64,000 bases of DNA from Nitrosopumilus sp. (GCA_965206745.1 OZ242220.1:352001-416000); one strand, 5' to 3'; positions 6,634 through 39,843 are shown, numbered from the stretch's first letter. Program-made: numbers and translations. Notes: generated from the letters alone by a model not told the origin.

Positions 6634-6654
6634 TCGTACTTTACTTGAAATTTT

Positions 6655-14991: not shown

Positions 14992-15303
14992 CGTTTTGTT
15001 ATATAATATAGTGAGAATTTTCTGCCATTCAAAATATTGTCAATTTTGTCTCTAAAGGATGTAATTTTTACAACTTTTGATCTATTAAAATTCCAAAAAT
15101 TACACGCTTAATCTAGCCAAGAGCTCATTTCCACTTCACACTGTATAAGCCCTCATTTCCACTAATTTGTGGCTATCCCTGGGAGGTACAATACTGCCCA
15201 GAATACGGCCAACTGACTTGGTGTAATCTGCAGGCTTGAACCTAAAATATGCCCCTGTCAATTACTACATATTTATCCCACACAAAGCAAGTTTGACTGA
15301 AAA

Positions 15304-17448: not shown

Positions 17449-17449
17449 G

Positions 17450-17797: not shown

Positions 17798-17800
17798 GAG

Positions 17801-18550: not shown

Positions 18551-18870
18551 CCGAGTTTCTTTGGATTGGGACTGTTGTTTACCTGATTGTTAATCTGCTC
18601 TGCCATAAAGTGGTTTGAGACGTTAACCTTGACATCATCGACCCCGTCGACCTTTAGCAGGTTGTCATGGACATCCTGGCATATCTTAAAACCAAACACT
18701 GCTGGACAGAACGGACTGGTAAGGTGCAGGTCCACCTTTACGCCGCTGTCGCTGATGTCTACCTCGTCGATTAGCTCAAGTTCCACAATTGATGTATTTA
18801 TTTCAGGGTCCACAATCTTTGATAGCTCGTCAAATATCTTGACCCGTAACAGTTTGATATCTTGGCTCAT
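18547..18870 (-). CDS. DUF59/SufT-like Fe-S cluster assembly protein
   Basis: DPEINTSIVELELI and LTSPFCP motifs; likely start MSQDIK. Confidence 0.9.
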   Translation of the reverse strand: MSQDIKLLRVKIFDELSKIVDPEINTSIVELELIDEVDISDSGVKVDLHLTSPFCPAVFGFKICQDVHDNLLKVDGVDDVKVNVSNHFMAEQINNQVNNSPNPKKLG

Positions 18871-18916
18871 GTCGAGAAAACCATCGATCCTATATATAAC
18901 CATTTTAGAACACTAG

Positions 18917-20380: not shown

Positions 20381-20632
20381 CTGGTCATCTGGTGTACAAA
20401 GCCCTGGGCTTGGTTAATTCTGACTCACTGACTGATCCCTGCCATGATGTGGTTTTGGACAGTCTCAGGCGTGACTGTTTGAATTTTAACACACGCCAAT
20501 TCCGTGAAACGGTGCTTGGACTATCTGTATAATTGTCACCTCTGATAAATTAATATCCTTTATATTCAAACTTTTTCTATATTACTTTGTATTGGTTCCT
20601 ACATTTTATGTTGATGGGATAGGTGGATATCT

Positions 20633-23600: not shown

Positions 23601-26600
23601 CATTTTCAGCCATGTTCCCAGCTGGTACGGTACCTGACGGAGCCCCTCATGTACGATATGACTTTGACTGGACCTTTGAGGATGAGTTGGGAGCATCAGA
23701 CCCACCGCTGGCTGCTACCATATTCGTAACTGGATCTGGAACAAACCTGGATCCTGTAATCGGAGACCTCCCTGATCTCCAAGACAGAACAATCGAAGAG
23801 CACGATACACTGACATTTACTTTGAGCAACGTTGATCCTAATACCGGTGATCGTGATAGTGGTATCTGGACCATGCCAAATACTCTTGGTGCAACCATGG
23901 GTAGAACCACTGGAGTATTTGAATGGACGCCAGATGACACACATAACGGCATGCATACATTTACCGTAACACTGACTGACCCGGGCGGCCTTGAAGGTAC
24001 GGCAGAGATCGTCGTTACTGTAACTGAGTTTAACGCAAGACCAACCCCATCTGGCACAACATACGAGGTTCGTGTCAACGAAGGAGGTAATTTAGACAGT
24101 AATCCGCTCACAGGGTTAGTTGATGATATGCTAGAGAATCCTCCATCTACCATAAGATATACCATTGATATTGGCCAAATACTGCCACCTGGCATAAGGC
24201 TAAACCTCAATGGAACCTTCTCCGGAACCGTATCCCATGATATAGCGAATCTTGCAAACTCACCACAACCTTTCCCGTTTACTTGGAATTACAATGACGG
24301 CGACCATGATCTGCCTGGATCTGGCATCATCATGGTAATCAACGACAACCGAATCCCAACAGTAGGGCCAATTCCAGGGGATGTTGACAGAACACCTGAT
24401 GAGGGCCAACTAGTACAATTTATCATGCCTGGTTCTGATGAAGATTTTGATACAGGTGATCCTCGGCCAACATGGAGGATAACAACTTCTTCTGATACTA
24501 ATGCGAGGATTGATACGACCAGTGGTGAATTCACGTGGACTCCAGATGACACTCACGGCAACAGCACAATTAGTTTCAATTTCATTTTGGAAGATTCTGC
24601 ATCTAGAGCTGGCCAGCTAATGATCAACTTTGATGTGCAAGAGTTCAACGCACCACCTACAGATAGTAGACCATACACGGTTACTGTCAGCGAGGGAGGC
24701 GAAATAACTACATCACTCGTAGGTTCAGTTGATGATATTCCAGAGAATCCGTCATCTGACGTAGAATATACCACATCTGACACGCTGCCATCTGGCATAA
24801 CGCTAAATCGTAATGGAACCTTCTCCGGAACCGTATCACACACTGTGGCAACTGCCGGAAACTCGCCACAAATGTTCGAGTTTGAGTGGACATACGATGA
24901 CGACGAGGGTGGCTCAAATATTAACATAAATCAGATGGGTACCATAACTGTAAACAACGACAACCGACCCCCGACAATAGATCCTCCAACTGATACCATC
25001 ATACCAATTGCCGAATTTGCCCCAGCAACCTTGTCCCTGACAAGAACAGATCCTGATGTTGCTGCAGGTGATGATCGGCCAGTATGGGGTGTGACAGCTA
25101 ATTCCACTACCAATGGAGATATCGATGCAGACGGCCTATTCACGTGGACTCCAGATGACAGTCACGGCAGCACCACAGTTACATTCACATTCACTCTGAT
25201 GGACTCTGCAGGAGCATCAGCCCTGCCCGAAGACGTCTCATATGTTGTCTCAGAGGTCAACTTAGAACCTACATCTACATTATACTTTTCTAGAGTCAAT
25301 GAGGGAGATTCAATTGATCTCCCGCTCACCTCATCAATTACAGATGAACCAGAGGATCCGCCATCTACCATAACATATACCACATCTGACACGCTGCCAC
25401 CTGGCATAAGGCTAAACCCCGATGGAACCTTCACCGGAACCGTATCACTTGATGCGACAATTCTCGCAGATTCGCCACAAAATTTCACATTTAATTGGCG
25501 ATACAGTGACGGCGATAATAACGCAGATGAGACGGGTATCATAGAGGTAACCAACGTCAATCAATCGCCGGAAATAATTGTGCATACCATAGAGGTAACC
25601 AGCCCCGACCGACCACCGGTAACAGTTATGCCAGAAAATATTGGCAGCCTGCCAAACCTCCCTATAGGTGATACCCTAACAATAAATTTCACTGCTAGGG
25701 ATGCTGATCCTAATACTGACTTTGTATGGGTTCTAACTACAAGTGATCCGCGTGAATCACTTACGGCTGACGGCCTATATACATTTACACCTGATAGAAC
25801 CCAGGAAAATCTAAATACGGGAAGGACTGTTACTCTGTCTGACGGCATAATTGATACTCCAATTTCTCAGGCGATACGAGTTTTCGTAATTGGCAGCGTC
25901 CCTATGATAACCATCTCACCTGATCCCCCTGACCATGCCGCTATTGGCAGCCCAGTTACATTCACTGTGACTGCTAGGGATCCTGATAGAAATCCTATAA
26001 CGAGTCTGGATATATTATCCAACACCGTAGGTGCAACACTTACCAATGGACAGTTCTCATGGACTCCTACGGCAGACCATGTAGGTCCTAACGTATTTAC
26101 ATTTAGGGCAATTGATGAGCGACTGGGAACTGGCACTGCAACGCATACAATTACAGTACCTACAGGAGAAAACGAACCCCCAACCTTTGTGACGTATGAG
26201 CCGGCCATACTAGAGGGCCAGATGATCCCTTCACTGTCCGATGCAGTTGATGATCCTTTTGAAAGTGACCAGCCCCCTGTAGAATACCGAATCATGGACG
26301 GAGATCTGCCTGACTACATTGAAGGATCCCTCAATGCCCAAACCGGTGCATTTGACGAGACGTTCCGATTTGACACGACGACTGACAGCATGACCTTCTT
26401 CTTCTCTTGGACGTTCAGGGACGGCAGCGGGGAACCAAAGCTTCAGCTCGGCTCAATAACGGTAAACAACGACCCTGACCTGATCCCTACACTAACGCGC
26501 GGAAATGATGGATACATCATCGGTTCGTACCAACCTACTGTGCTGGCAATGGAAATGCTCCCTCCTCTATCCAGAGTGGTTACAGACTATCCTGTAGAAC

Positions 26601-29551: not shown

Positions 29552-29660
29552 ATTCTATCTGATGTAATAAAGACATGATCCTGTCTTATGAAATATCCTG
29601 ATGCTGTAAAGCCTAAGGGAGGATCCTTGGCACATTATTTACAAGCCTGCATCATAACTA

Positions 29661-30032
29661 TCATCCCAGCTTTTGCCTGTATACTGTGACTGTGCCGTCC
29701 TCAAATGTATACTCTATCTCGATGATTCCGGATGCGGCCTTTGCAGGCCATGCCACGACGCCGGAGGTATGCGGTCCGGCATCAACCCGCTCGGCATGCG
29801 TGCAGTTGCATCCTGATATGGCCCCCCTGAAATGAATAATTGCAGAAGAGCCGCCGTTTGTGTATGTTGCAGATATCATCGAGAGGGACCGATCCCCATA
29901 TACCGCAACATGCGATATGACCCTGTACTGATCCTCCAAGCTTGTAGCATAGTCTCCCATGTGTACAACTGCGATCCCTGCAAGGGAGACGGTGGCTGCA
30001 ACTCCGAGCAGTACTGATATGGCATACTCCAT
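29661..30032 (-). CDS. Archaeal type IV pilin-like protein, no class III leader
   Basis: N-terminal helix AISVLLGVAATVSLAGI, ATYTNGG, C-terminal IEIEYTFEDGTVTV beta-hairpin. Confidence 0.6.
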   Translation of the reverse strand: MEYAISVLLGVAATVSLAGIAVVHMGDYATSLEDQYRVISHVAVYGDRSLSMISATYTNGGSSAIIHFRGAISGCNCTHAERVDAGPHTSGVVAWPAKAASGIIEIEYTFEDGTVTVYRQKLG

Positions 30033-30035
30033 GAA

Positions 30036-30230
30036 TTATACCCCAAGCTTTCCGACAAACCTGCCGTCCCTCTCTATCCTGATATAGTGGATGCCTGCCT
30101 TGCGGTACAGCGATATGACCTTATAGTCCCCGACGAACACCGAATCCCCCTCACCCATCGAGTCAATTACCTGCCTTGCGTGGTCATACCTTACGCCCAG
30201 TATCTCACAGAGCACCTTTCTGGGGTTCAT
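30036..30230 (-). CDS. Small hypothetical protein translationally coupled to virB4
   Basis: ATGA overlap with the virB4 stop; ends 3 nt before the pilin start. Confidence 0.65.
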   Translation of the reverse strand: MNPRKVLCEILGVRYDHARQVIDSMGEGDSVFVGDYKVISLYRKAGIHYIRIERDGRFVGKLGV

Positions 30231-32035
30231 GGCTCGTTGGGATCCGTGTTGAACAGCTCAAGCTCCCTGTCGTCTGCGATGAACTGGCAGCGCACCACGT
30301 TCTCAGATGCATGTACCATGGCCTCGCCCTTCTTTGCGCCGATCAGTATGTTTGCCTCGTGCTCTGAGAGGTGCAGCGTACCAGTCAGGGCGTCCTTCTC
30401 GGCTGCCTTGTGCTGGAGGAATATCTTGGTGTCAGAGTTGTTAAAGAGTGCAAGCGCATGCTGGTGCTTGAGAATGTCTGCAATGTTCTGGGTTGCAAGT
30501 ATTATGGTGACGTTGTACTTTCGCGCCCTCCGTGCCAGCTCCTCGACTGACTCGCCTGTACTGTCATCCTTGAAGAGGGCCCACCCCTCGTCAAGCACGA
30601 TGAACTTTGGGATTATCTTTGGCAGCTTTGTGGCATGTTGTAACGCAAACTCCAGTGCGACCCTAGTTGCCAGGCGGTGCTCGTCTGAGTTTACCGCAAA
30701 GGAATTTGCAAGGGCGACAACGGTGCTGCTGTTCATGGTGGGTCTTCCGGACAGCAGGGAGCGTATCGGCCCCATCTCAAGTATCTGCATGTAGGAGTAG
30801 TGATCGGTGCCGTTTTGCCGGTCTGAGATCTTTATCAGGTTTATCATATGGTCGACATTTGAGCATCCTTCCTCCTCTGCTGCCTTTAGCATCGAGTATC
30901 TGGTAAGCTTGCCGACGCCCAGTATGTCAGCTAGTAGCGATGCTGCGCGGTACCTTGACATGTAGTGGAACGGGTCCATGCCAAGTCTAATGTTTGCATC
31001 AACTGCAGAGACTGAGAATCCAAGCCTTGATGCAAACTCGACATACTCGTTCTCAATGTCTACAAAGAAGAAGAATGCCTCCGGATACATCTTTTGCGCG
31101 CGGGAGACGATTATCTTTATGGTGTGCGACTTTCCAGCCCCACTTGTAGCGACGATTCCAATGTTGTAGTTTCTCCTCTTCTTATAGTTGTACAGCACCG
31201 CCCTCCTTGTTACAACGTTTACCCCCCATGCAGTCCCCCCCTTCTCTGAGAGTTCCGATGAGATAAAGGGGAACAGCGGGTGAAGGGAGTCAGTCTCCAC
31301 GTAGATGTCGGTCCGACCAGAGAGGAGAAACCTCCTGTCCGAGTACGGCAGGTGCCTCACAGTGGCCCTCATGGCCTTGGCCTTTGAGGAGAACCTCTTT
31401 GCCCTCTCCTCCAGGTTCTTTTTTGTGATGCCTGTCACCCCAAAGGTCACCCTCACTGACACTATCTGCGAGGCGTTCTGGTGCAGCACCTTCTCCTTCA
31501 TGGCATCAATCATCGAGGAGCCATCAATGGTGTCCCTCTTTGCAGAGAGGTGCGCAGTCTTTAGCGACCCGCGGAGGACGGAGACGTATGATTCTGGCTT
31601 TATGGGCTTTAGAAATATCCGGACAAAGTCGCAGTACTGGAACATCCTGTATATCCATCCCGCGTTGAGCTTGTTTGGTACCGAGTAAAGGGAGTGACAC
31701 CTTGCACGCATTCCGTTGTGCAGTATTATACAGGATGACTCAGAGTGCTCAATGTCAAACTCCGGCGGCTCCATCCTCTCAAATGTGAATCCGGACTGTA
31801 CAAGAATGTGCGATATGTCCTCCTTTGATGTGATGACTGTCTTTTCGTTTGCACATGAGATCTGCTTCTTTCCAAACATCATGTCATCATACTCCCTGAA
31901 CATGTCAATTGTAATGGGACCGTCAAGGGAGTCAGCCAGACTCTTCAGCCTGTCTACTAGCATCACCTGCTCCTCGATGCTGGCATATGCCATGTTAAGT
32001 GGGGATATGAGATAGCTGTGATTTTTTGGTCTCAC
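30227..32035 (-). CDS. virB4: VirB4/TraC-family secretion ATPase
   Basis: NIGIVATSGAGKS (Walker A), FVDIENEY, FIVLDEGW (Walker B), RRARKYN, LATQN, GEAM. The N-terminal ISPLNMAYASIEEQ segment is typical of conjugative VirB4 systems. Confidence 0.85.
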   Translation of the reverse strand: MRPKNHSYLISPLNMAYASIEEQVMLVDRLKSLADSLDGPITIDMFREYDDMMFGKKQISCANEKTVITSKEDISHILVQSGFTFERMEPPEFDIEHSESSCIILHNGMRARCHSLYSVPNKLNAGWIYRMFQYCDFVRIFLKPIKPESYVSVLRGSLKTAHLSAKRDTIDGSSMIDAMKEKVLHQNASQIVSVRVTFGVTGITKKNLEERAKRFSSKAKAMRATVRHLPYSDRRFLLSGRTDIYVETDSLHPLFPFISSELSEKGGTAWGVNVVTRRAVLYNYKKRRNYNIGIVATSGAGKSHTIKIIVSRAQKMYPEAFFFFVDIENEYVEFASRLGFSVSAVDANIRLGMDPFHYMSRYRAASLLADILGVGKLTRYSMLKAAEEEGCSNVDHMINLIKISDRQNGTDHYSYMQILEMGPIRSLLSGRPTMNSSTVVALANSFAVNSDEHRLATRVALEFALQHATKLPKIIPKFIVLDEGWALFKDDSTGESVEELARRARKYNVTIILATQNIADILKHQHALALFNNSDTKIFLQHKAAEKDALTGTLHLSEHEANILIGAKKGEAMVHASENVVRCQFIADDRELELFNTDPNEP

Positions 32036-32110
32036 AAAAAACCGCGTGGCTTTTGCTTAAAAGTATGGCAATCAAGAGGTAGAATTTGTTGGTACTAAAA
32101 AAAGATGGTG

Positions 32111-32776
32111 TCAGCACGCCATGTGCTGTACTGTTTTGGCTCTCCCAGATAGCATGTTGCAGATGGCAGCCATCGCGTGCACAGACACCATGATTGCAAG
32201 GATTGTGTATGCTCCCCCGAGGAGGACTGATCCGATGCCAACTATTACGCCATACGATGCGGCATAGAGAATCCATGTCTTTTTCATCCCCACCCTCTTG
32301 TACATGACGGAGATTATGACGTTGCGCTCCTGCCTTGGGAATCTCCCTGACCTTACTGTACTGATCACGTCAAATGAGAGGGCAGCCACATAGAGGGGTA
32401 CCATGACGTGCAGTGCAATCGCATCCTGGAGCAGCACCAGCAGCGCTGCAAGCGCAACAGATGCCACTACTACATACAGTGTCCTGTCTAAAGAGAGGAC
32501 TCCCAGCCCGACTGCAACCATGATCACCCCGACTATGGGGAACCAGAATGCAAGCAGCCCTACGAATCCCTTGCCGATGAGATGGAACTGCCCGATGATC
32601 TTTGTCGCATTTTTTGTAGCGTCATCGCCGGCAATATCGGCATAGTCTGTGGTGTCGTTTGCCACCATCGTTGCAAGCGTTCCACCTATCACTGCAAGGA
32701 TCAATCCGACTACAAACACCAGCCCCATCGCCTTTGAGGCCTCGCCTATGTCGGCCTTGCCGAGTTTCTCTAACAT
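32111..32776 (-). CDS. Membrane protein: N-terminal two-helix pilin/capsid-like hairpin fused to a DUF5658-like domain
   Basis: KA-DI motif, hydrophobic helix, loop with NDT/NAT sequons, second helix WFPIVGVIMVA; then FDVIST...ERN in a multi-TM domain. Confidence 0.55.
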   Translation of the reverse strand: MLEKLGKADIGEASKAMGLVFVVGLILAVIGGTLATMVANDTTDYADIAGDDATKNATKIIGQFHLIGKGFVGLLAFWFPIVGVIMVAVGLGVLSLDRTLYVVVASVALAALLVLLQDAIALHVMVPLYVAALSFDVISTVRSGRFPRQERNVIISVMYKRVGMKKTWILYAASYGVIVGIGSVLLGGAYTILAIMVSVHAMAAICNMLSGRAKTVQHMAC

Positions 32777-32825
32777 GGCAAATCGTATAAAATTCGGATT
32801 TAAGTAAAATTATCTGATACATTCT

Positions 32826-33329
32826 GTGTTAATAATAGATCTCGTCAATGTCGTGGCACGTGCCAGGATTGCAAGGGTGGATGTGGCAGACATATCATGC
32901 AGGGTGCCGTGCAACTATGTCCCCTCCAGGTTTGCAGCACTGGTGATTCCCATCAAAAAGTCAAAGATGGTACACGTCAACTTGTATTCTTGCACCATCA
33001 CATCCACCGGTGCAAACAGTACCGATGATGCGATATCTGCAATATGGGATGCAGTAGGGATCATCGAAGAGTCCGGAGAATACCTAAAGTTTCTTAAACC
33101 TCCAAGTATTAGCAGCATCACTGCCGTGGTATATCCGACAGACGAGAAAATGATACCTATAGTACCTGCAGACGCGCAGAAGGTGCCGTTCTTCTCCTCG
33201 CATTGCAAGATAAGGGATCCCCTTAACAATGCGACCCTGATGATTGCAAAGTCAGGCAGGGTGACGATAACAGGCGCCACCTCGCTTCATGATGTGATTG
33301 CAGCAGCCAAGAGGCTTTTTGGCATTTGA
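32826..33329 (+). CDS. Highly diverged TATA-binding protein paralog
   Basis: Two TBP repeats: VNVVA...YVPSRFAALV...TITSTGANSTDDA and PSISSITA...ATLMIAKSGRVTITGATSLHDV. Confidence 0.8.
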   Translation: MLIIDLVNVVARARIARVDVADISCRVPCNYVPSRFAALVIPIKKSKMVHVNLYSCTITSTGANSTDDAISAIWDAVGIIEESGEYLKFLKPPSISSITAVVYPTDEKMIPIVPADAQKVPFFSSHCKIRDPLNNATLMIAKSGRVTITGATSLHDVIAAAKRLFGI

Positions 33330-33436
33330 TGTGTCTAATTCAAAGGCATCATGCTGATGCGAGACGAGTGATTCATCAACAGTACATTACAGGTGGAACT
33401 GACGACCCTTAACCCTGTTTTTTACTGCATGGTACA

Positions 33437-33838
33437 ATGCTGCTTGCAAACGAGAGCCTCCTGATGACGGTGGCATTTGTAGGACTTGCCGGAGTAATTG
33501 TCGTAATAATTGGAGACGACTATGGGGATACCATCCAGGCAATTAACAGCATGTCGGACTCTAGAAGTGCCGGGATTGCAGAATCAGTCGGCGTGCTTGA
33601 CGTGCAGAAGGGGGGTGACATAGCATACATCATACTCTCAAACCATTCCGAGGATGCAGTAATGCTCATCGGCTTTTGGGACGAGGACGGCGATGAGCTA
33701 GTATGCAGTGATTCGGGGGGCATGTTGGATGGGCTGCAGATACCTGCAGGTGGGACTGTCACGATATCATGTGCCATCAGCGGCACACACGTCATAGTCT
33801 CGACTGCAAACTATAACCTCATCCGCATCAAAACATGA
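33437..33838 (+). CDS. Archaeal pilin/FlaG-like protein
   Basis: N-terminal hydrophobic helix, ESVGVLDV, YIILSNHS, IPAGGTVTI, VIVSTANYN. Confidence 0.6.
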   Translation: MLLANESLLMTVAFVGLAGVIVVIIGDDYGDTIQAINSMSDSRSAGIAESVGVLDVQKGGDIAYIILSNHSEDAVMLIGFWDEDGDELVCSDSGGMLDGLQIPAGGTVTISCAISGTHVIVSTANYNLIRIKT

Positions 33839-33955
33839 ATCAACATGACTCATCCGTTCTAATTGGGATGCCGCAGTTTAGAATCTGCCTCTGGCATCAC
33901 GATTCCCTGTACCCCAGTCCCCTCCCCTTTTATTCAAAAGAACCATGTCCTGCCA

Positions 33956-34444
33956 ATGGATTCAAAACCGATTGCCATAATACTTGGCATCGTCATCACT
34001 GTAGGCGCAATGGGCGCTGCCACAGTATATGCTGGAAACATCTTTTCTGGGACCAGCACCAGCACCGACCTGATTCCAAAGACAGTCGAGATCTTTTCAA
34101 TCGACAAGGATCACCTTGAGGCAAACGTCCAGCTTACAAATCAGGGAACAGGAACGCTGCAGAACATCAGGGGACAGGTGGAGGTCAACGGGCTGACAAA
34201 CCACACGCTGACTGTCAAGACATCCAGTGTGGGGCCATACAAGACCCTCGTGCTCTCCGGACCCATAAGGGACATAGAGTCGGCAGGAGCTACGGGCAAA
34301 GGCACGCTCATTGGAACTGCCACCTCACAGGACCAGGCAAGCCAGTGGGACATGTATCCTGGCCAGAGCGTGCTGCTAAGAATCACGGCAGAGACGACAT
34401 CTGGCGACAGCATAGAGAAGCTCCATGAGATAACAGTGAGATAG
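33956..34444 (+). CDS. Archaeal type IV pilin-like protein, no class III leader
   Basis: MDSKPIAIILGIVITVGAMG resembles a mature pilin N-terminus; VQLTNQG; PGQSVLLRITAETTSG. A TATA-like TTTTATT about 25 nt upstream supports this start. Confidence 0.7.
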   Translation: MDSKPIAIILGIVITVGAMGAATVYAGNIFSGTSTSTDLIPKTVEIFSIDKDHLEANVQLTNQGTGTLQNIRGQVEVNGLTNHTLTVKTSSVGPYKTLVLSGPIRDIESAGATGKGTLIGTATSQDQASQWDMYPGQSVLLRITAETTSGDSIEKLHEITVR

Positions 34445-34518
34445 GCCCGGTCTCCAACCCCCATTTTTTTTTAAAATCCCTGCCAGTCTCCTTTAATGTA
34501 AAAGGGATACCGTGCTTT

Positions 34519-35139
34519 GTGACGTTTGAAAAGTATTTTGTGGCAATAAGACACGAGTCCGAACTGATGACCCCGCTTGTGGAGAGTCCGCTTATGAACT
34601 TCAGCCTCAGGGAGATTGGATACCTCGGGGTCTTTGGACTCTCGGCAGTCTTTGCAGCAATCGGCTCGATACCGTCATTTTCTACTATCTTTACGTTCCC
34701 CCTCCTTGTCCTGGCACTGTTCAGGTGGCACGGGGAGATCCCCGAGATGTACCTGTACTTTATGGCAATGCCGTTCTTTGAGCCATCAAAAAAGAAGAGA
34801 CGCAAGGCAAAGCACCCGAGGTCGGAGGTTTCAGGGTATGGGGAGAGAATGCCCATTACGGGGGAGCAGGCAGTACGTGAGAGGATACAGAAGGTAAGGT
34901 TCTCCGATGAGATGACGCCCCTTGATATGACCCTTGAGATCGGAGGATCCCACGTACATGAGACAGTATCTGTATTCATCGATGATAGAAAGATAGTCTG
35001 CGACAGCACAAACGGGGCAGGCCAGATTGTAGTCAGCGTCATGCCGCAGAGGGGGCAGAGGCGGCTATCAATCAGAGACAGAGACGGCCACATCCTAATC
35101 TCAAAGACAGTACAGTTTGAGGGGGCAGGGCGCCAGTAG
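34519..35139 (+). CDS. PrgI/VirB3-like membrane protein with extra C-terminal beta domain
   Basis: FSLREIGYL, two TM helices, LALFRWHGEIPEMYL, basic stretch KKKRRK; stop overlaps the next start. Confidence 0.65.
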   Translation: MTFEKYFVAIRHESELMTPLVESPLMNFSLREIGYLGVFGLSAVFAAIGSIPSFSTIFTFPLLVLALFRWHGEIPEMYLYFMAMPFFEPSKKKRRKAKHPRSEVSGYGERMPITGEQAVRERIQKVRFSDEMTPLDMTLEIGGSHVHETVSVFIDDRKIVCDSTNGAGQIVVSVMPQRGQRRLSIRDRDGHILISKTVQFEGAGRQ

Positions 35140-36893
35140 TGAGGGATGCGTCGCAGAACAGAGTCCTGCGGTTTCTCTTTTCATACTCGGAGGCAGATCT
35201 TGGGATATCTGCTGTGATCCTGCTTGTCACCACAATAGGGATGACGGTAGCATTTATCATATTTGCAGCAGAGCAGACCAGACTGTTACAGCTGGAGTTT
35301 ATCAACGTGGGCTTTCACAATCCAAAGTTCTTTGAGGATGTCCGCGGCATTGCCGGATTCACCGAGGGCGCACTCTCGTACTCTGAGCCGACATCAAACT
35401 ATGTCACATACGAGCTGATGCGCCAGAACATATTTCCCATCGGTGCTATCCTTGTGTTTGTATACATCCTGATAAACGCGTGGGGCGAGGCATCTGGAAT
35501 ATTCAGGGGAGGTGCGACAAGGCAGATGTTCTTCAAGTTTCTGGGGGTGATGATACTGGTGATGGTCTTTGTTCCGGCATGGGATGTGGCAGCAGTAGGG
35601 ATAGAGAAATTCTCAATATCAATGCTAAACCCGATGTACTCCCATGATGCACAAGACAACTGCGTGGAGAGGCCAGATGCCGTACTGCTGCTGGTAGCAG
35701 AGCAGAACCAGAGGATACACCAGAGACTCGACCAGTCGACACTCGGATTCAATGACTGGGATATGTGCCATCCGCAGCTGAGAATCGCATACGTATACCA
35801 AAAGGCATTCTCCGGTGCGACAAGTGAGATTGACCAGAACGTGATAGGCTTTGAGAGGATACTGTCTGACTTTGCCAATCTGGGCGAGATAATCGGTTCG
35901 ACGATATTTCTTGGCATGACCAAGACCATGCTGCTCTTCTCTGTAACCCTGATAGGACTCATAGTAATGACCATCCGCGAGCTGCTCCTTGCACTGCTCA
36001 TATCGCTGCTGCCGATGTTCATACTGCTGGCATTTGTGCCAAAGGTCGGAGGCATCTTCTCAAGGCTGCTTGAAACCATTGTTCCGCTGCTGCTGATTCC
36101 TGTAATCACTGCTGCAGTCTTTCTGACGGGGGCAGGAATCCTCCTTGACATGGAGGACGAGTTTGTCCAGGCCAGGGCAGACGGCCATGAAAGGTTCACC
36201 TTCTGGATTGCCGCAATATCGCTACTGATTCTGGCAACTGGCATCCCGCTGCTGATGGCCCCGATACTCTCCGGCATTGCAAGTCAGGCCTCCTCAATGG
36301 TGGGTACTGCAGTACTGTCGGGGATAGTGGGGGCAATGAGTGTGGTGAAAGGCGGTGCTGCAGGAACCGCAGCAGGAATCAGGGGTGTCTCTGAATCCGG
36401 ATCCGGATTTATCAGCAGGGCAGGAATGGCCGGAGTGATAGGAGGACTGGGACATGGCACTGCAATGGGCGCCTCAGCGGGTCTGATGTCCGATGTGTCA
36501 ACAGGGGTATCGCACATGGCACCGGGCACCGGTCCTGCAGGCTCTCCGTTCTCGCAGCAGGGACGTGACTTTCTAAGGTTTGCAGGTACCGGTTCTGGGG
36601 GAGGATTTGATCCGCAGGAATCTGCAAGGCTGCGCGGCAACCTGGCAGTGGCACCTGACCCCGCAAGTGTCGTGCCTGCAATCCCTCCGATAGGCCAGGG
36701 CGGCAATTATGCCAGCATGCCTATTATACCGACAAACATCGGCTCGCCGGTACAGTATGCTGACACGACACCGAGAAGCAAGAGCGGGGAGGATGCGCTG
36801 CTTGATACCAATAGTCATATCCGGCCGATATTCAGGGAGAGGCCTGACCTGACAAATGCCGGAGACAAGAAAATCCTGAAAGGGGAAAAGTGA
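35139..36893 (+). CDS. VirB6/TrbL-like polytopic membrane channel
   Basis: Multiple TM helices, IRELLLALLISLLPMFILLAFVPKVG segment, Gly/Ala-rich C-terminal tail; linked to the PrgI-like gene and virB4. Confidence 0.75.
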   Translation: MRDASQNRVLRFLFSYSEADLGISAVILLVTTIGMTVAFIIFAAEQTRLLQLEFINVGFHNPKFFEDVRGIAGFTEGALSYSEPTSNYVTYELMRQNIFPIGAILVFVYILINAWGEASGIFRGGATRQMFFKFLGVMILVMVFVPAWDVAAVGIEKFSISMLNPMYSHDAQDNCVERPDAVLLLVAEQNQRIHQRLDQSTLGFNDWDMCHPQLRIAYVYQKAFSGATSEIDQNVIGFERILSDFANLGEIIGSTIFLGMTKTMLLFSVTLIGLIVMTIRELLLALLISLLPMFILLAFVPKVGGIFSRLLETIVPLLLIPVITAAVFLTGAGILLDMEDEFVQARADGHERFTFWIAAISLLILATGIPLLMAPILSGIASQASSMVGTAVLSGIVGAMSVVKGGAAGTAAGIRGVSESGSGFISRAGMAGVIGGLGHGTAMGASAGLMSDVSTGVSHMAPGTGPAGSPFSQQGRDFLRFAGTGSGGGFDPQESARLRGNLAVAPDPASVVPAIPPIGQGGNYASMPIIPTNIGSPVQYADTTPRSKSGEDALLDTNSHIRPIFRERPDLTNAGDKKILKGEK

Positions 36894-36945
36894 TGTCTTG
36901 GATATGCAACTGCATGATGTGTCTTCACATCAGACCAGATGGCAA

Positions 36946-39135
36946 TCAGAGATGTTCCTTCTTTGTGATTGCAACATCATAGCTGGCAGTCTCTGCAAAT
37001 AACAGCCTCCTGATTCGCTCATTTAGTGGCAGGGGACTACCCCAAAACGAGTCACCTTCTGTCTGCAGGACAAACTCTTTCTCAGTTGCATATCCCAACG
37101 TACCTGCGTTTGTAATGACCAGGTCCGGCTCTACTGTCTCGTATCTTAGTGTCCTGTGCGTCCTCTTTTCATCTGCCATCTCCTTTGTAATGTTCTCATC
37201 ACTGATAGTGCACAGCAGAACCCACCATCCCCTCTTCTCGTTGTATACTGCCGGATACCCGTGCCTTATCCCCACTGCATCCTCTGAAAATACCGTTGCA
37301 CGATAGCCAAACTTTAGCTCGCATTTGTCAGGACCCATCACCTCCAAGCCGGCCTCTGAGATTCTAAAGTAGGGGTTTGTCGTAAACCACATGTGTCTTG
37401 ACTGGTCATGCCATGCATCAGCATAGGTGTCCTCCTCTGGAATCCCCTTCGGCTTGATGGCCCTCTCCAGCCTCGTCTTTGTGTTCTGTGACTCCATCTC
37501 TGCATCCCTTATCTCGTCGATGGCAGTCTTTTGGGAGCCAAAGTGTTCCCGCCGAAGCTCGAGTCTGCCCTCGTCGAGGCCCTCAATGACATGCTGCACC
37601 CACCCTCTGTCCGTGTGGTCAGTCCACTGGCTTGGTGGATTTGACTTGCACCATGTGTCATAGACGCGCCTTGCCCTCAGCTTTGCCTCCTGGCGTTGCT
37701 CCCGCTCAAAGGTCTTGGCGTACATTGGTCCGCTTTGGAACTTTTCAATATCCTCATATGCCGCATCCAGGGATGCAATGGCAGCAAGTATCAGGGAATA
37801 GTCCTTCTCTGATGCGATTCTTTTGGCCTCATCTGCACCCCATGGGCAGAATATCTCATCAGTCCATGCAAAGCTAAACCCGTCTGGAAGATCATCTAGT
37901 TCCTGTACTGTTATCTTTTCATTGATCTCCTTCTTGAACTGCTGCCACTCTACGAGGGACTGGGGTCTAAATGATTCAGGGACAGAACCGTTCCTTGCAA
38001 TCTCTTGTATGGTGTCAAATATGATGTACGGGTTGCAGCCATCCCTCACCCTCTGCGAATCCTCCTCCTGTAGGTTTTCAGTTACTATCTTCATGGCCTC
38101 TGCAAGCAGAGACTGATGCTCCATATTGTACTGCTCAAACCGCCTGCCGTACCGCAGTATGTCTTCTCTTATTTTTCTGTCCCTGCGTGTCAGGTCACCT
38201 GCAACCTCAAGTGGAATTCCTGTGCAGAGGCATGCAAGTACCACCCTTGCATCGCATTCCCCTATCTCCTTGGTGGTGGGACTGCCCCACCTTCTCTTTG
38301 CAAGTATTGCCAGATAGTCGTTGATGCGCTTGAAGGTGCCGTACTTGCCTGAATAGTATTGCGCATAGATCTCCTCTGGTGTCATCGAGCCGAACTCTTC
38401 TGTGTATGTTGCAAGTGTCCGTATCTCCTTTGCGCCCCCGTCTGAGTATGCCTTTGCTATACTAGTACAGACAGACTCTGCAGGCTCTGATTTTACCCTG
38501 ATCTCGATGCCGCGGTTTCTCCTCGATGACTCGTCATACCCATCCCTCCACGTCGGCTCAAAGTAGTGGATCCTCACTGTCCTGCCCCTGGAGTCATACG
38601 AGTCCAGAATATCCAGTGGCATCTCAAGACACAGCCCCCTATCAAACGTTACAAAGTATATTCCCAAATTAGTTATCAGCATCTGGCCCTTGCCAAACCT
38701 GCACTCCCCGTCATGGCGACTCATCAGGTGCTCACCTGCATGCATTGCCAAGTATCCCTCCATGTTTGGCCTGTTCTTTGGATGGTTCTTTTGTACTGCG
38801 ACAAGCAGCAGATTGGCAAGTCTTTTTGACTCTGTCCTCCCTGCTTTCCTCCTCTGCGTCCTGTCCGGAAATGATCTCCCCAAGTCCAGCCTAAAATCCT
38901 GATGGTATCTGCCATGGTACCTCCCCTGTTCTCCCTCCTTGGATTTTGGCGCCCTCCAGAATATCCTTACCGTGTCACGGGATACTGGAAATGCGCAGCG
39001 GATCACATCGAGATTGACTGTAAACACGTTCTTTTTATCATCATCAATCACAACCAGGGAGGAATCCTTGACGTAGAGCTCCTCGTTATCCCTGAGGTGT
39101 CCGCAGTACAGGGGCTGGCTGCTTGTCAGTACCAT
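36946..39135 (-). CDS. 729-aa soluble protein with two N-terminal PH/GRAM-like domains
   Basis: ELYVKDSSLVVID...VNLDVI...VRIFW and GQMLITNLGIYF...MPLDIL...VRIHY...ESVCTSIAKAY; the remainder is not recognised. Confidence 0.55.
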   Translation of the reverse strand: MVLTSSQPLYCGHLRDNEELYVKDSSLVVIDDDKKNVFTVNLDVIRCAFPVSRDTVRIFWRAPKSKEGEQGRYHGRYHQDFRLDLGRSFPDRTQRRKAGRTESKRLANLLLVAVQKNHPKNRPNMEGYLAMHAGEHLMSRHDGECRFGKGQMLITNLGIYFVTFDRGLCLEMPLDILDSYDSRGRTVRIHYFEPTWRDGYDESSRRNRGIEIRVKSEPAESVCTSIAKAYSDGGAKEIRTLATYTEEFGSMTPEEIYAQYYSGKYGTFKRINDYLAILAKRRWGSPTTKEIGECDARVVLACLCTGIPLEVAGDLTRRDRKIREDILRYGRRFEQYNMEHQSLLAEAMKIVTENLQEEDSQRVRDGCNPYIIFDTIQEIARNGSVPESFRPQSLVEWQQFKKEINEKITVQELDDLPDGFSFAWTDEIFCPWGADEAKRIASEKDYSLILAAIASLDAAYEDIEKFQSGPMYAKTFEREQRQEAKLRARRVYDTWCKSNPPSQWTDHTDRGWVQHVIEGLDEGRLELRREHFGSQKTAIDEIRDAEMESQNTKTRLERAIKPKGIPEEDTYADAWHDQSRHMWFTTNPYFRISEAGLEVMGPDKCELKFGYRATVFSEDAVGIRHGYPAVYNEKRGWWVLLCTISDENITKEMADEKRTHRTLRYETVEPDLVITNAGTLGYATEKEFVLQTEGDSFWGSPLPLNERIRRLLFAETASYDVAITKKEHL

Positions 39136-39327
39136 GATTATGGTGTGCGGTGACTATTCTTTTTAAAGAAACAATCCCGTCTGGCAGAAATCAGTCCCTC
39201 AATAATCTCACATGATACACCTTGATTCGTGTACGACATCTTTGTGTAACATGTGCCAGCACGGATAAAAAAATATGCAAGTGATCCTTTCCCTACCAAG
39301 TGATGCACATGTGGCAGTAGTTGCTAA

Positions 39328-39699
39328 ATGAGAAAATATATTGTATATCTCTATGATCCTTTTATGGTTTTGAATCTAAAGAAGACTCTATTATTTACAT
39401 TAATGCCGCTTCAGGGAATCTTGTTGATATTGATAGGAGATGGAATAGCCCGCATCAGAGTACCTGATGAGATTGATCCTGTTTTTCAAATCTGGGTTTT
39501 TTTCAACTATGTCCCCTTGCTTGTTTCACGTCTAGCGTGGGCGCCATTTATTTTACAAGAGGACTGGCGTCAGTATGCGGATCCTGTGATTCTAATGTGG
39601 ATTGTAGGATCAAACCTGTTATTCTGGCTCCCAATCACGCATGTCTTGTATAACAAATTTCTCAAACCAAAGGACGTTGGGAATCCTAAGCCTGTCTGA
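39328..39699 (+). CDS. Hypothetical membrane protein (about 3 TM)
   Basis: Hydrophobic, AT-rich ORF; start may be the second Met. Confidence 0.5.
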   Translation: MRKYIVYLYDPFMVLNLKKTLLFTLMPLQGILLILIGDGIARIRVPDEIDPVFQIWVFFNYVPLLVSRLAWAPFILQEDWRQYADPVILMWIVGSNLLFWLPITHVLYNKFLKPKDVGNPKPV

Positions 39700-39768
39700 C
39701 TGTTTGGAGTGTATAGAGATGAGCCGGGAATATCTCCTGGCAATTACTCATGGTATCTAATGATGTTT

Positions 39769-39843
39769 TGGTGGACCGGGAGGGAATCGCACCCTCGACC
39801 TCCTCGTTGCGAACGAGGGATTATGCTCCTAAACCACCGGCCC
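39769..39843 (-). tRNA. tRNA-Ala(CGC), atypical D and T loops, CCA encoded
   Basis: GGGCCGG/CCGGTCC acceptor with G3:U70, CCTCG-TTCGCAA-CGAGG anticodon arm, GAGGG-TGCGATT-CCCTC T arm. Confidence 0.85.

What the first reader, a model, noticed from the sequence alone, without database searches (positions are those of the whole stretch)
29661..39135. Candidate undescribed thaumarchaeal T4SS-like system: VirB4, VirB6, PrgI, hairpin pilin, three type IV pilin-like proteins and a private TBP, with no relaxase or coupling protein
Seen: ten intact, tightly packed genes. Two divergent arms (hairpin protein-virB4-small ORF-pilin leftward; TBP-pilin-pilin-PrgI-VirB6 rightward) are closed by a convergent PH-like gene. 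Walker A/B and the RK motif are intact. I see no relaxase, VirD4, VirB11/PilB, TadC, prepilin peptidase, integrase or replication gene. Known: a minimal VirB4/VirB6/VirB2-like set without relaxase describes the crenarchaeal Ced and Ted DNA-import systems, and ICEs with VirB4/VirB6 exist in Thaumarchaeota. Inference: a domesticated DNA-exchange or protein-secretion machine that mixes conjugation-type and type IV pilin-type parts under its own transcription factor.
Basis: partly seen in the sequence, partly recalled or inferred. Interest (0 to 1): 0.88.

Follow-up and report, generated by a model that had tools for sequence, protein, structure and literature searches.

The report
Split archaeal conjugation gene cluster
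This locus is one of three scattered but intact pieces of a horizontally acquired conjugation-type DNA-transfer machine in an ammonia-oxidising archaeon: a known kind of element, here broken up and without any integrase.

Summary
The ten ORFs are real and intact. VirB4 and TBP are firm. VirB6 and PrgI-like are weak. The 729-aa gene has a tandem PH N-terminus. The "pilins" are only N-terminal-helix proteins, and the "hairpin pilin" is a 5-TM protein with no fold match.

The claim of a minimal set without coupling protein, PilB or TadC comes from the locus borders. A complete genome of the same genus (G353) and three genomes of a second genus carry the same genes in one block with a T2SSE ATPase, a 9-TM platform candidate and three large proteins. 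In this genome that block lies 1.16 Mb away beside tRNA-Lys. A TraD/CedD-like ATPase lies 1.33 Mb away.

Whole-genome synteny shows that window 20300-39770 sits at the junction of a circularly permuted, translocated core segment. GC is 50.7% against 41.2% genome-wide. The module is patchy (7 of 401 family genomes) and sits at a different chromosomal site in G353.

So this is a fragment of a thaumarchaeal ICE-type hybrid of T4SS and type IV filament parts, a kind already in print. The unusual points: no integrase in the genome, or within about 70 kb of the module in the four relatives; all pieces intact; TBP present and no TFIIB found. Domestication is possible but not shown.

The parts
29661..30032 (-). 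g01: 123-aa protein with one N-terminal hydrophobic helix (pilin-like). It is the last gene of the leftward operon in this genome.
   Evidence: ORF; TM 5-23; N-terminal helix 48% identical to g06 over 27 aa; 48% orthologue in G353, where the 237-aa H3 gene follows directly. No family hit.
30036..30230 (-). g02: 64-aa ORF that overlaps the VirB4 stop by 4 nt.
   Evidence: ORF; overlap. G353 has a 63-aa ORF in the same position, with no evident sequence similarity on reading the two side by side (no alignment run). No family hit.
30227..32035 (-). VirB4-class ATPase, 602 aa.
   Evidence: Pfam TraG P-loop 3.6e-11, AAA_10. NCBIfam VirB4 families up to 3.1e-30; CedB 8.7e-10. Walker A/B and the RK motif are invariant in 15 sequences. 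Single copy in the genome. 83% identical in G353 and 52-55% in genus g23.
32111..32776 (-). g04: 221-aa membrane protein with 5 TM segments. It has an N-terminal two-helix hairpin and a C-terminal domain with invariant polar residues (D118, D136, S139, T140, E150, N152, H200, N207). It sits directly upstream of VirB4.
   Evidence: TM prediction. Homologues at 47-63% identity and alignment A2. AF2 pLDDT 70, all helical. Best Foldseek PDB hit E 0.21. No Pfam or NCBIfam hit.
32777..32825 (.). 49-bp AT-rich divergent spacer between g04 and TBP, holding TATAAAA-like and TTTAAG-like words. It is the presumed bidirectional promoter.
   Evidence: Read directly from the sequence. Promoter function is inferred, not tested.
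32826..33329 (+). Divergent two-repeat TBP paralogue, 167 aa.
   Evidence: PF00352 2e-12. It is the weakest of six TBP genes in the genome, 27.8 and 21.2 bits. 16-26% identical to the host TBPs, and 26-27% to the TBPs beside VirB4 in G009 and G007. Homologues at 56-58% identity lie on contigs of the same lengths as those that carry g04 homologues. tblastn with this TBP found no match (E<=1e-4) in the stretches fetched from G353, G116, G135 or G152.
33437..33838 (+). g06: 133-aa protein with one N-terminal hydrophobic helix (pilin-like).
   Evidence: orthologues in G353 (50%) and G116 (31%).
33863..34444 (+). g07: pilin-like protein with a beta-rich domain. The real start is probably the ATG at 33956 (MDSKPIAIILG...).
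   Evidence: ORF; TM 37-55 of the long ORF; weak CARDB hit 0.0048; orthologues in all four close relatives align from residue 20-32 onward.
34519..35139 (+). g08: PrgI-like (VirB3-analogue) candidate with an N-terminal TM hairpin and a C-terminal beta domain. It overlaps the VirB6 start by 1 nt.
   Evidence: PF12666 E 0.18 for this copy; 4 of 9 family members hit, best 0.0013. The g08-VirB6 adjacency is kept in G353, G116, G135 and G152 and in 4 (L013, L014, L016, L018) of the 14 more distant loci; in L020 the gene abuts VirB4. Predicted complex of its N-terminal 100 aa with VirB4: weak support, 0.58 against a best control of 0.00.
35139..36893 (+). VirB6/TrbL-like polytopic membrane protein, 584 aa, 8 TM segments.
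   Evidence: TrbL 6.5e-4; 26.5 bits, above the cut-off, in the genome scan, and the only hit in the genome; TM prediction; homologues in 8 of 14 relatives' loci; 79% identical in G353. A profile search of the PDB found nothing.
36946..39135 (-). g10: 729-aa protein with N-terminal tandem PH domains followed by helical and alpha/beta domains of unknown function.
   Evidence: AF2 pLDDT 91.3. Foldseek: FACT Spt16M/Pob3M/SSRP1M, Rtt106 and IRS-1 PH-PTB, E 4e-5 to 1e-3, covering the N-terminus only. Only 35 clusters among 1.84 billion representatives. No Pfam or PDB sequence hit. Homologues in L013, L022, L023 and G353. A paralogue lies at G000:C1:893323-895429.
39328..39699 (+). g11: 123-aa ORF with 2 TM segments, between g10 and tRNA-Ala. 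It lies inside the genome-specific DNA. No homologue was found.
   Evidence: the synteny with G012 begins at 39771.
39769..39843 (-). tRNA-Ala(CGC). Its 3' end marks the right border of the genome-specific DNA.
   Evidence: ARAGORN; synteny with G012 and G017 starts here. No repeat of the tRNA longer than 16 nt was found elsewhere in the genome.
20633..29551 (+). Giant 2972-aa Ig/cadherin-like surface protein. It fills the rest of the genome-specific stretch (20300-39770). It is associated with the module but not shown to belong to it.
   Evidence: He_PIG 1.5e-32, Big_9 1.7e-15. No match in G012. Three genes with a 52-54% similar C-terminal domain lie 8-25 kb beyond g10 in the G353 island.

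Best explanation
The locus is the VirB4/VirB6 core of a horizontally acquired conjugation module of the thaumarchaeal ICE type, a hybrid of a type IV secretion channel and a type IV filament machine.

In its contiguous form, seen in G353 and in three genomes of a second genus, one block of about 25-30 kb holds: VirB6, the PrgI-like protein, two or three pilin-like proteins, g04, VirB4, three further large proteins (one of them a 9-TM platform candidate), a T2SSE ATPase and a 790-aa protein. A TraD/CedD-like ATPase lies 15-22 kb away in two of those genomes.

In this genome the element most likely sat between a core flank (X) and tRNA-Ala. A later rearrangement cut between g01 and the 237-aa gene. 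It carried the VirB4/VirB6 part away together with about 55 kb of core genes. The filament part was left beside tRNA-Lys, and the coupling-type ATPase beside flank X.

No tyrosine or serine recombinase was found in the genome, so the element cannot move as an ICE. It is immobilised.

Inferred mechanism, none of it tested:
- The island TBP helps to start transcription at the divergent spacer.
- The T2SSE ATPase and the 9-TM protein assemble the pilin-like proteins into a contact filament.
- VirB6 with the PrgI-like protein forms the membrane channel, energised by VirB4.
- The TraD/CedD-like ATPase feeds DNA into the channel or takes it from it.

Whether the scattered parts still work together is open.
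For: Identity of the parts.

Foreign origin:
- GC is 50.7% in H1 (window 29661-39699), 49.5% in H3 (the filament part beside tRNA-Lys, C1:1539460-1552956) and 47.2% in H2 (the coupling-ATPase block beside flank X, C1:1713958-1724470), against 41.2% for the genome.
- Window 20300-39770 has no match in G012.
- H3 has no DNA match in 5 of 5 close relatives apart from the tRNAs and a few 120-125-bp matches in G015.

Fragment status:
- In G353 the order is 790aa, T2SSE, 617aa, 836aa, 237aa, g01, VirB4 (83%), g04, g06, g07, g08, VirB6 (79%), g10 (58%), all in one block. G116, G135 and G152 carry the same core.
- In G000 the 237aa to 790aa genes lie at C1:1540637-1549792.

Rearrangement:
- G000 357746-372299 and 391771-447636 map to G012 243986-251439 and 196713-243943. 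That is a circular permutation, and it is inserted at a single G012 point (1310399|1310387).
- The old site between X (from 1724470) and Y (to 1482378) now holds 242 kb that G012 lacks.

Coupling-type ATPase:
- 861 aa with one N-terminal TM. AAA_10 and DUF87; SXT_TraD 4.8e-8 and CedD 1.2e-5.
- Its homologues abut or lie near VirB4 in 5 of 14 relatives' loci.
- All 5 genomes with the close module have one.

Immobilised: PF00589 gives 0 matches in G000 against 3-16 in five relatives. PF00239 gives 0 of 7 genomes.

Mobile history:
- g04 is found in 7 of 401 family genomes and VirB4 in 10 of 36 genus genomes.
- The G353 module sits at another chromosomal site.
- G015 carries a VirB4 relic at 82% nt identity elsewhere in its genome.

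Known kind: PMC6563490 and PMC5797428.
Against: - No att repeat of tRNA-Ala was found, so integration at that tRNA is inferred from synteny alone.
- The element reconstructed between X and tRNA-Ala would be about 195 kb and includes 100 kb of 31-34% GC DNA. It is probably a composite. The coupling-type ATPase (H2) may belong to a different element from H1 and H3; in G353 and G116 it is also far from the module.
- Krupovic et al. report TFIIB, mostly followed by ParB, in all their ICEs. None of the six TFIIB genes of G000 lies in H1, H2, H3 or the 242-kb region. ParB was not tested.
- PF01478 found no prepilin peptidase in the genome.
- VirB6, PrgI-like, platform and pilin assignments are weak.
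- All 13 orthologue pairs between G000 and G353 are intact, with pN 0.10-0.33 against a saturated pS of 0.65-0.77. A strain 2-3% diverged keeps the locus; of its 12 listed indels, 10 are intergenic, one is a 3-nt insertion in g10 and one is a 1-nt insertion at the g01 start codon (7 more not shown). No recombinase lies within about 70 kb of the module in any of the four close relatives. These three points fit a host-maintained system as well as a recently immobilised one.
Confidence: 0.72

Rival explanations
1. Domesticated, host-maintained DNA-exchange apparatus, working like Ced+Ups or Ted. The VirB4, VirB6, CedD-like ATPase, filament machine and a general-transcription-factor paralogue act from dispersed chromosomal loci to move chromosomal DNA between cells. 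They are kept by selection on the host and not by an element.
For: - No tyrosine or serine recombinase in G000, and none within about 70 kb of the module in G353, G135 or G152. G116 has none at all.
- All parts are intact after dispersal in G000, G353 and G116.
- pN is far below pS for 13 of 13 gene pairs.
- The module is present in 3 of 5 genomes of genus g23.
- Precedent: Ced components cedD and upsC are encoded away from their operons, and belong to a UV-induced gene set named for the TFB paralogue TFB3 (PMC11823120, passages read).
Against: - Patchy distribution: 3 of 98 genomes of the genus besides G000.
- The chromosomal sites differ between G000 and G353, and the module is more diverged (66-73% nt) than the flanking core DNA (mostly 76-87%; one stretch 74%).
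- GC is 6-10 points above the genome average.
- Decayed copies exist in G015 and in Nitrosopumilus sp. UBA526.
- TBP and g10 are not constant parts of the module.
- No RNA data are at hand.
Confidence: 0.2
2. Inert relic. The rearrangement cut the leftward operon and separated the parts from their promoters and partners. The genes are still open only because the event is recent.
For: - The operon is cut after g01, and the 237aa to 617aa genes now follow tRNA-Lys and 1.2 kb of unrelated DNA.
- No integrase and no detectable prepilin peptidase.
- Related copies are decaying in G015 and UBA526.
Against: - A strain 2-3% diverged carries the whole H1 locus. Of its 12 listed indels, 10 are intergenic, one is a 3-nt insertion in g10 and one is a 1-nt insertion at the g01 start codon. 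Seven further indels were not shown.
- All ORFs of H1 and H3 and the coupling-type ATPase are full length compared with G353.
Confidence: 0.2
3. A surface-filament, adhesion or protein-secretion system that has nothing to do with DNA transfer. It would be linked functionally to the neighbouring giant adhesins.
For: Giant Ig/cadherin-like proteins flank the module here and in G353. The module carries pilin-like proteins and a T2SSE ATPase. No relaxase or replication gene was found.
Against: A VirB4 together with a VirB6 and a TraD/CedD-like ATPase is the signature of DNA-conducting systems in archaea. Relaxases are absent from bona fide archaeal conjugative plasmids too (PMC6563490).
Confidence: 0.07

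Closest known systems
Thaumarchaeal integrative-conjugative elements (Krupovic et al. 2019, PMC6563490; Abby et al. 2018, PMC5797428)
   Same: VirB4, VirB6, a VirD4-type ATPase, a VirB3-like small protein, a FlaI/T2SSE-type ATPase, a TadC-type platform and pilin-like proteins occur together. There is no relaxase. The element lies next to a tRNA gene. The gene order is fluid. A general transcription factor paralogue is carried.
   Different: No integrase and no att repeats. TBP is present, and the TFIIB (with ParB in most elements) that was reported for all described ICEs was not found (ParB untested). The module is scattered over three chromosomal loci. A tandem-PH protein (g10) is present. 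I read passages of the main texts only. The supplementary tables that list the elements were closed, so I cannot exclude that a close relative of this module is already catalogued.
ICE-2 of Ca. Nitrosocaldus cavascurensis, described as an 'immobilized conjugative element' (PMC5797428)
   Same: A conjugation gene set in an ammonia-oxidising archaeon that lacks an integrase and was proposed to be inherited vertically.
   Different: ICE-2 is one contiguous 43.6-kb element with direct repeats at a tRNA. Here the parts are dispersed and no repeats were found. The two organisms belong to different orders. No sequence comparison was made.
Ced (with Ups pili and TFB3) of Sulfolobales and Ted of Thermoproteales (PMC9905601, PMC11823120)
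   Same: A VirB4-like ATPase, a VirB6-like channel and a VirD4-like ATPase (CedD/TedD). There is a separate type IV pilus for cell contact. Components are encoded at distal loci. In Sulfolobales a general-transcription-factor paralogue (TFB3) gives its name to the UV-induced gene set that holds cedD and upsC. There is no relaxase or integrase.
   Different: Ced and Ted are conserved across their orders. This module is patchy and sits at variable sites. No VirB2/CedA1/TedC-like pilin could be shown. The NCBIfam CedB and CedD models score 38 and 24 bits against cut-offs of 700 and 600. Direction of transfer and function are unknown here.
Monoderm-type bacterial T4SS (PrgI/PrgJ of pCF10; CD1110-family VirB4)
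   Same: The best VirB4 family hit is conju_CD1110. A PrgI-like small membrane protein stands in the place of VirB3.
   Different: All scores are far below the family cut-offs. The system is archaeal, with filament genes that bacterial monoderm systems lack (this last point is from my own knowledge).

Membership tests
VirB4 ATPase family | P-loop ATPase with Walker A, Walker B and the C-terminal arginine/lysine motif; best similarity to VirB4/TraC/TrbE and not to HerA/FtsK | tested here: met
   G299/G301/K302, D482/E483 and R502/R505/K506 are invariant in 15 sequences. NCBIfam VirB4 families reach 3.1e-30 to 1.9e-18, against HerA 3e-4. All scores are below the equivalog cut-offs, so this is a distant member.
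Thaumarchaeal ICE (Krupovic 2019) | VirB4 together with a VirD4/TraG-type ATPase | tested here: met
   VirB4 lies in the window. The TraD/CedD-like 861-aa ATPase lies at G000:C1:1713958-1716543, not in the locus. The two are adjacent in L013 and lie in one locus in L016, L018, L020 and L017.
Thaumarchaeal ICE (Krupovic 2019) | VirB6, VirB3, TadC, FlaI/PilT, prepilin peptidase and pilins | tested here: inconclusive
   VirB6 is weak but over the cut-off in the genome scan. PrgI/VirB3-like is weak. T2SSE is strong, 2.3e-26. T2SSF is at E 0.014, the only hit in the genome, inside the 9-TM gene. PF01478 gives no hit. Pilins are supported only by an N-terminal helix.
Thaumarchaeal ICE (Krupovic 2019) | TFIIB homologue, in most elements followed by ParB | tested here: not met
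   PF00382 finds six TFIIB genes in G000, none in H1, H2, H3 or the 242-kb region. A TBP is present. ParB was not searched. My guess that two H2 ORFs are TFIIB-like and ParB-like got no Pfam support.
Integrative-conjugative element (any) | Integrase and flanking attachment-site repeats | tested here: not met
   PF00589 gives 0 matches in G000 at E<=0.01. PF00239 gives 0. No repeat of tRNA-Ala of 17 nt or more exists elsewhere in the genome.
Ced/Ted DNA-import systems | Sequence membership of CedB/CedD; a VirB2-like CedA1/TedC pilin; conservation across the host order | tested here: not met
   CedB model 37.8 bits against cut-off 700. CedD model 24.2 bits against 600. No fold match for g04. The module is found in 7 of 401 family genomes and at different sites.
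TATA-binding protein | Two TBP repeats over the Pfam threshold; paired DNA-inserting phenylalanines (their role is recalled, not from any call) | tested here: inconclusive
   Both repeats are detected, 47 bits overall. In my alignment the F of the FPGL motif is kept in both repeats. The F of the 'LIF/LLF' position is Y in repeat 1 and A in repeat 2. DNA binding is untested.
PrgI / VirB3-like | Pfam PF12666 over the cut-off; small protein with a TM hairpin that binds VirB4 | tested here: inconclusive
   12.8 bits against cut-off 27 for this copy; 4 of 9 relatives at E<=1. One TM segment passes the hydropathy threshold (33-51); a second, about residues 55-75, is read from the sequence only. Predicted complex with VirB4: weak support, score 0.58, best of 3 controls 0.00. 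The tool's calibration says the mark was reached by 58 of 80 solved complexes and 2 of 110 mismatches, and that passes at or under 0.60 are more often wrong than right. The runs agree in at least 80% of contacts; partner pLDDT is at least 62. A VirB3-VirB4 complex has been solved, so the pass may come from memory.
Archaeal type IV pilins | Class III signal peptide cleaved by a PibD/FlaK-type peptidase, followed by a hydrophobic helix and a beta-rich domain | not testable with these tools
   The N-terminal helices are present. The leaders are short and lack the usual basic residue before the helix (read from the sequence). No predictor was available, and no peptidase was found.

The most novel reading that the evidence does not exclude
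Marine or host-associated Nitrosopumilaceae keep a host-maintained DNA-exchange machine. It would be a hybrid of a VirB4/VirB6/CedD-like channel and a type IV filament. It would run from up to three dispersed chromosomal loci without any integrase. In some lineages it would be wired to a private, highly divergent TBP and a tandem-PH protein. This would be a mesophilic counterpart of Ced+Ups+TFB3, and the first such system in ammonia-oxidising archaea.
Probability: 0.2. Interest if true: 0.8.

Novelty: new variant of a known kind. Interest (0 to 1): 0.45.

Why it matters
Conjugation-type DNA transfer has never been shown experimentally in ammonia-oxidising archaea, which are among the most abundant microbes in the ocean.

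This case gives a well-defined gene set of about 13 conserved genes. It is found in five genomes of two genera, with no tyrosine or serine recombinase found within about 70 kb of the module in any of them. In three of them its ATPases are dispersed yet intact. That state lies between 'mobile element' and 'host organ', the transition that produced Ced and Ted in Crenarchaeota.

It also shows how a locus-bounded reading can mistake a rearrangement fragment for a minimal system. A TBP, and not a TFIIB, can travel with such modules. A tandem-PH protein of a rare family is linked to them.

If the parts prove to be co-expressed, the long-open question of how streamlined marine Thaumarchaeota exchange DNA becomes testable.

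Tried and rejected
1. I first read the locus as one half of an ICE split in two, with the TraD-like block (H2) as the other half. The G353 comparison showed that the true contiguous partner is the filament block H3. H2 may belong to another element.

2. I guessed that three H2 ORFs are TFIIB-like, ParB-like and prepilin-peptidase-like. Pfam found nothing at E up to 5, and PF00382 and PF01478 genome scans found nothing there. Dropped.

3. att site: no repeat of tRNA-Ala, and the direct-repeat scan of window 10000-46000 found only adhesin repeats.

4. g04 as a VirB2/CedA1/TedC-like pilin: the AF2 model (pLDDT 70) has no Foldseek hit at E<=0.001; the best was E 0.21. Not shown.

5. Profile searches of the PDB with the g08, g10 and VirB6 alignments found nothing meaningful. 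PHROGs had hits only for VirB4. The ESM Atlas gave no usable hit for g10.

6. Expression: no RNA holder is listed for the locus. X8 is only guessed to be RNA, and its contigs are identical in layout to those of DNA run X7. So there is no evidence either way.

7. The metagenome-contig scan with VirB4 found no relative. The genome-contig scan found one 5.1-kb contig.

8. The dS estimate between G000 and G353 is saturated, so only pN against pS is reported.

9. Literature: searches for TBP together with VirB4 and archaeal mobile elements, and for T4P, TFIIB and VirB4 in Thaumarchaeota, turned up no description of a TBP in a thaumarchaeal conjugation module. 'tbp' occurs 0 times in the main text of PMC6563490. 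Supplements were closed and may hold it. That Halobacterium megaplasmids carry tbp genes is recalled, not checked.

Full report
WHAT IS THERE

The window is G000:C1:352001-416000 of a 1.86-Mb genome in two contigs, 99.6% complete. The closest named relative found is a MAG titled Nitrosopumilus sp. UBA526.

Between 29661 and 39135 lie ten uninterrupted ORFs with gaps of -4 to 107 bp.
- Leftward: g04 (221 aa), VirB4 (602 aa), g02 (64 aa) and g01 (123 aa).
- Rightward: TBP (167 aa), g06 (133 aa), g07 (193 aa as listed; the real start is probably the ATG at 33956), g08 (206 aa) and VirB6 (584 aa).
- The 729-aa g10 converges on VirB6.
- A 123-aa ORF (g11) and tRNA-Ala(CGC) at 39769-39843 follow.

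THE PARTS

- VirB4 is firm. It has Pfam TraG P-loop 3.6e-11. NCBIfam VirB4 families reach 3.1e-30, with HerA only at 3e-4. Walker A, Walker B and the R/K motif are invariant in 15 homologues.
- TBP is firm as a fold family (PF00352 2e-12, two repeats) but very divergent. It is the weakest of six TBP genes in the genome and 16-26% identical to the host copies.
- VirB6 rests on eight predicted TM segments, a TrbL hit that is under the cut-off as a protein and over it in the genome scan, and its context. Only 1 of 9 family members hits TrbL, and a PDB profile search found nothing.
- g08 is PrgI-like only weakly: E 0.18 for this copy, and 4 of 9 relatives at E<=1. A predicted complex of its first 100 residues with VirB4 got 'weak support'. 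The score was 0.58 against a best control of 0.00. By the tool's calibration such passes at or under 0.60 are more often wrong than right. The runs agree in at least 80% of contacts, and the partner pLDDT is at least 62. A VirB3-VirB4 complex is solved, so the pass may reflect likeness only.
- g10 folds with pLDDT 91.3. Its first ~230 residues match tandem PH domains of FACT and Rtt106 (E 4e-5 and weaker). The remaining 500 residues match nothing. The family has only 35 clusters among 1.84 billion representatives.
- g01, g06 and g07 each have one N-terminal hydrophobic helix. g01 and g06 share theirs. That they are type IV pilins is an inference.
- g04 has five TM segments, an N-terminal helical hairpin and a C-terminal domain with eight invariant polar residues. 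Its model has no Foldseek PDB hit at E<=0.001; the best was E 0.21. 'Hairpin pilin' is not shown.

THE LOCUS IS FOREIGN DNA AT A REARRANGEMENT JOINT

GC is 50.7% against 41.2% for the genome.

Against the complete genome of G012, a species of the same genus that I fetched whole, the mapping is as follows.
- G000 357746-372299 (window 5746-20299, ending with the argininosuccinate lyase gene) maps to G012 243986-251439.
- G000 391771-447636 (window 39771 onward, starting at tRNA-Ala) maps to G012 196713-243943.
- The 19.5 kb between them, holding the giant adhesin and the ten genes, matches nothing.

So a core segment that is colinear in G012 (tRNA-Ala ... lyase) is circularly permuted here, with the island at the joint. 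The whole block is inserted at a single point of the G012 backbone (1310399|1310387).

The segment's old place lies between flank X (G000 from 1724470) and flank Y (to 1482378). It now holds 242 kb that G012 lacks, except for tRNA-Asp and tRNA-Lys at 1539208-1539454 and two short weak matches. G017 shows the same breakpoints.

THE MISSING PARTS EXIST ELSEWHERE

1. Flank X. Beside it, an 861-aa ATPase lies at C1:1713958-1716543. It has one N-terminal TM and hits AAA_10 and DUF87, SXT_TraD at 4.8e-8 and CedD at 1.2e-5. Its homologues sit beside or near VirB4 in 5 of 14 relatives' loci (L013, L016, L017, L018, L020). A neighbouring 272-aa gene keeps that adjacency in L016 and L018.

2. tRNA-Lys. 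Beside it, C1:1539460-1549900 has no DNA match in 5 of 5 close relatives apart from the tRNAs and a few 120-125-bp matches in G015. It encodes 237-aa, 836-aa and 617-aa proteins, a T2SSE ATPase (2.3e-26) and a 790-aa protein. The 617-aa protein has nine TM segments and carries the genome's only T2SSF hit, at E 0.014.

3. The decisive comparison. g04 homologues occur in 7 of 401 family genomes.
- In G353, a complete genome of the same genus, one block reads: 790aa, T2SSE (78%), 617aa, 836aa, 237aa, g01, VirB4 (83%), g04, g06, g07, g08, VirB6 (79%), g10 (58%). Three adhesin-like genes follow.
- G116, G135 and G152, of a second genus, carry the same core with VirB4 at 52-55% (the g04 copy of G116 was seen).
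- tblastn with the island TBP found no match (E<=1e-4) in the stretches fetched from any of the four, and with g10 only in G353.

So the leftward operon of the window is cut after g01, and its continuation now lies 1.16 Mb away.

The TraD-like ATPase is present in all five genomes with the close module. It lies 15-22 kb from the module in G135 and G152. In G353 and G116 it is far away, 0.48 and 0.83 Mb.

MOST LIKELY HISTORY (INFERRED)

An element, or a stack of elements, sat between X and tRNA-Ala with the order X - H2 ... H3 - H1 - tRNA-Ala. A rearrangement cut between the 237-aa gene and g01, and again between the lyase (or adhesin) and tRNA-Lys. The released segment closed on itself and re-entered elsewhere.

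This single scheme explains four observed joints: X-H2, H3-tRNA-Lys, lyase/adhesin-g01 and g11-tRNA-Ala. It leaves unexplained the size and mixed GC of the 185 kb between H2 and H3, and the origin of the adhesin gene.

No att repeat was found.

MOBILE, IMMOBILISED OR DOMESTICATED?

For a mobile past:
- The distribution is patchy. VirB4 is found in 16 of 61 genomes searched, G000 included, and in 10 of 36 in the genus, mostly at 31% identity or less. g04 is found in 7 of 401.
- In G353 the module sits at a different chromosomal site and is more diverged (66-73% nt) than the flanking core DNA (mostly 76-87%; one stretch 74%).
- Decayed copies exist in G015 (a 244-bp relic at another site) and in UBA526 (a change of frame within VirB4).

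For present immobility:
- PF00589 finds nothing in G000, while five relatives have 3-16 hits. PF00239 finds nothing in 7 of 7 genomes.
- In G353, G135 and G152 the nearest tyrosine recombinase is at least about 70 kb from the island. G116 has none.

For maintenance:
- All 13 orthologue pairs between G000 and G353 are open and of like length. pN is 0.10-0.33 against a saturated pS of 0.65-0.77.
- Contigs of a run from another study carry the whole H1 locus at about 2-3% divergence. Of the 12 indels listed, 10 are intergenic. One is a 3-nt insertion in g10. One is a 1-nt insertion at the g01 start codon. Seven more were not shown.

These data cannot separate a recently immobilised element from a host-maintained system.

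COMPARISON WITH WHAT IS KNOWN

- Krupovic et al. (PMC6563490, passages read) describe thaumarchaeal ICEs with VirB4, VirD4, VirB6, VirB3, TadC, FlaI/PilT, prepilin peptidase and pilins. They have no relaxase and a fluid gene order. All encode TFIIB, in most elements immediately upstream of a ParB-like gene.
- Abby et al. (PMC5797428, passages read) describe an integrase-less 'immobilized conjugative element'.

The mix of conjugation-type and pilus-type parts, and the lack of a relaxase, are therefore known features.

What differs here:
- The island has a TBP, and no TFIIB was found in it. None of the six TFIIB genes lies in the islands. TBPs also sit beside VirB4 in G009 and G007. Two further assemblies carry TBP and g04 homologues on contigs of matching lengths.
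- There is no recombinase.
- The module is dispersed over three loci with every part intact.
- A tandem-PH protein is present.

Ced and Ted (PMC9905601 and PMC11823120, passages read) are the closest working analogues. They have a VirB4-like ATPase, a VirB6-like channel and a VirD4-like CedD/TedD. They use a separate type IV pilus. Components are encoded at distal loci, and cedD and upsC belong to a UV-induced gene set named for the TFB paralogue TFB3. Membership fails on sequence scores and on distribution.

VERDICT

The system is a variant of a known kind and not a new class. Its present function is open.

Noticed in passing
window 5746-20299 and 39771-64000 (G000:C1:357746-447636): About 55 kb of core genes (tRNA-Ala ... 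succinate dehydrogenase, argininosuccinate lyase) is circularly permuted relative to G012 and inserted at a single backbone point (G012 1310399|1310387). This looks as if the segment was excised as a circle and re-inserted elsewhere.
   Followed up: partly
G000:C1:1482378-1724470 (outside the window): A 242-kb stretch is absent from G012. It includes about 100 kb of 31-34% GC DNA (1.60-1.70 Mb) and 57 kb of 48% GC DNA between tRNA-Asp and flank Y.
   Followed up: partly
window 8878-14181: A 1767-aa fn3/HYR-repeat surface protein lies in a second genome-specific insertion. The synteny with G017 jumps from window 8140 to 15259.
   Followed up: no
window 28000-29551; also G000:C1:113166, 629595, 1257021, 1483078: The C-terminal ~320 aa of the giant adhesin is a multi-copy domain in this genome. 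It recurs in three genes of the G353 island.
   Followed up: no
G000:C1:1704017-1713589 (L036 1-9090): A tandem array of five paralogous genes (416-554 aa, each with an N-terminal hydrophobic segment, 73-83% identical to one another) lies next to the TraD-like ATPase. Three more copies lie at 151591, 223598 and 227388.
   Followed up: no
G000:C1:1713958-1716543 (L036 9459-12044): The TraD/CedD-like ATPase carries ten tandem copies of the pentapeptide KPDDT near its C-terminus.
   Followed up: no
G000:C1:893323-895429: A paralogue of g10 (the tandem-PH protein) lies in another small stretch that G012 lacks.
   Followed up: no
L130 11983-12072 (G353): A tRNA-Leu(TAA) gene lies inside the G353 module, in a 1.9-kb insert between the g07 and g08 orthologues.
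   Followed up: no
whole genome G000: No tyrosine or serine recombinase was detected anywhere, whereas relatives G009 and G007 have 11 and 16 PF00589 hits. The genome encodes six TBP and six TFIIB genes.
   Followed up: yes
L024 5264-5505 (G015) and L039 350-2096 (Nitrosopumilus sp. UBA526): G015 holds a 244-bp VirB4 relic (82% nt identity) beside DNA that is syntenic to G000:C1:682571-687782. The UBA526 VirB4 (83% aa identity) changes reading frame between residues 109 and 156; this may be an assembly error.
   Followed up: partly
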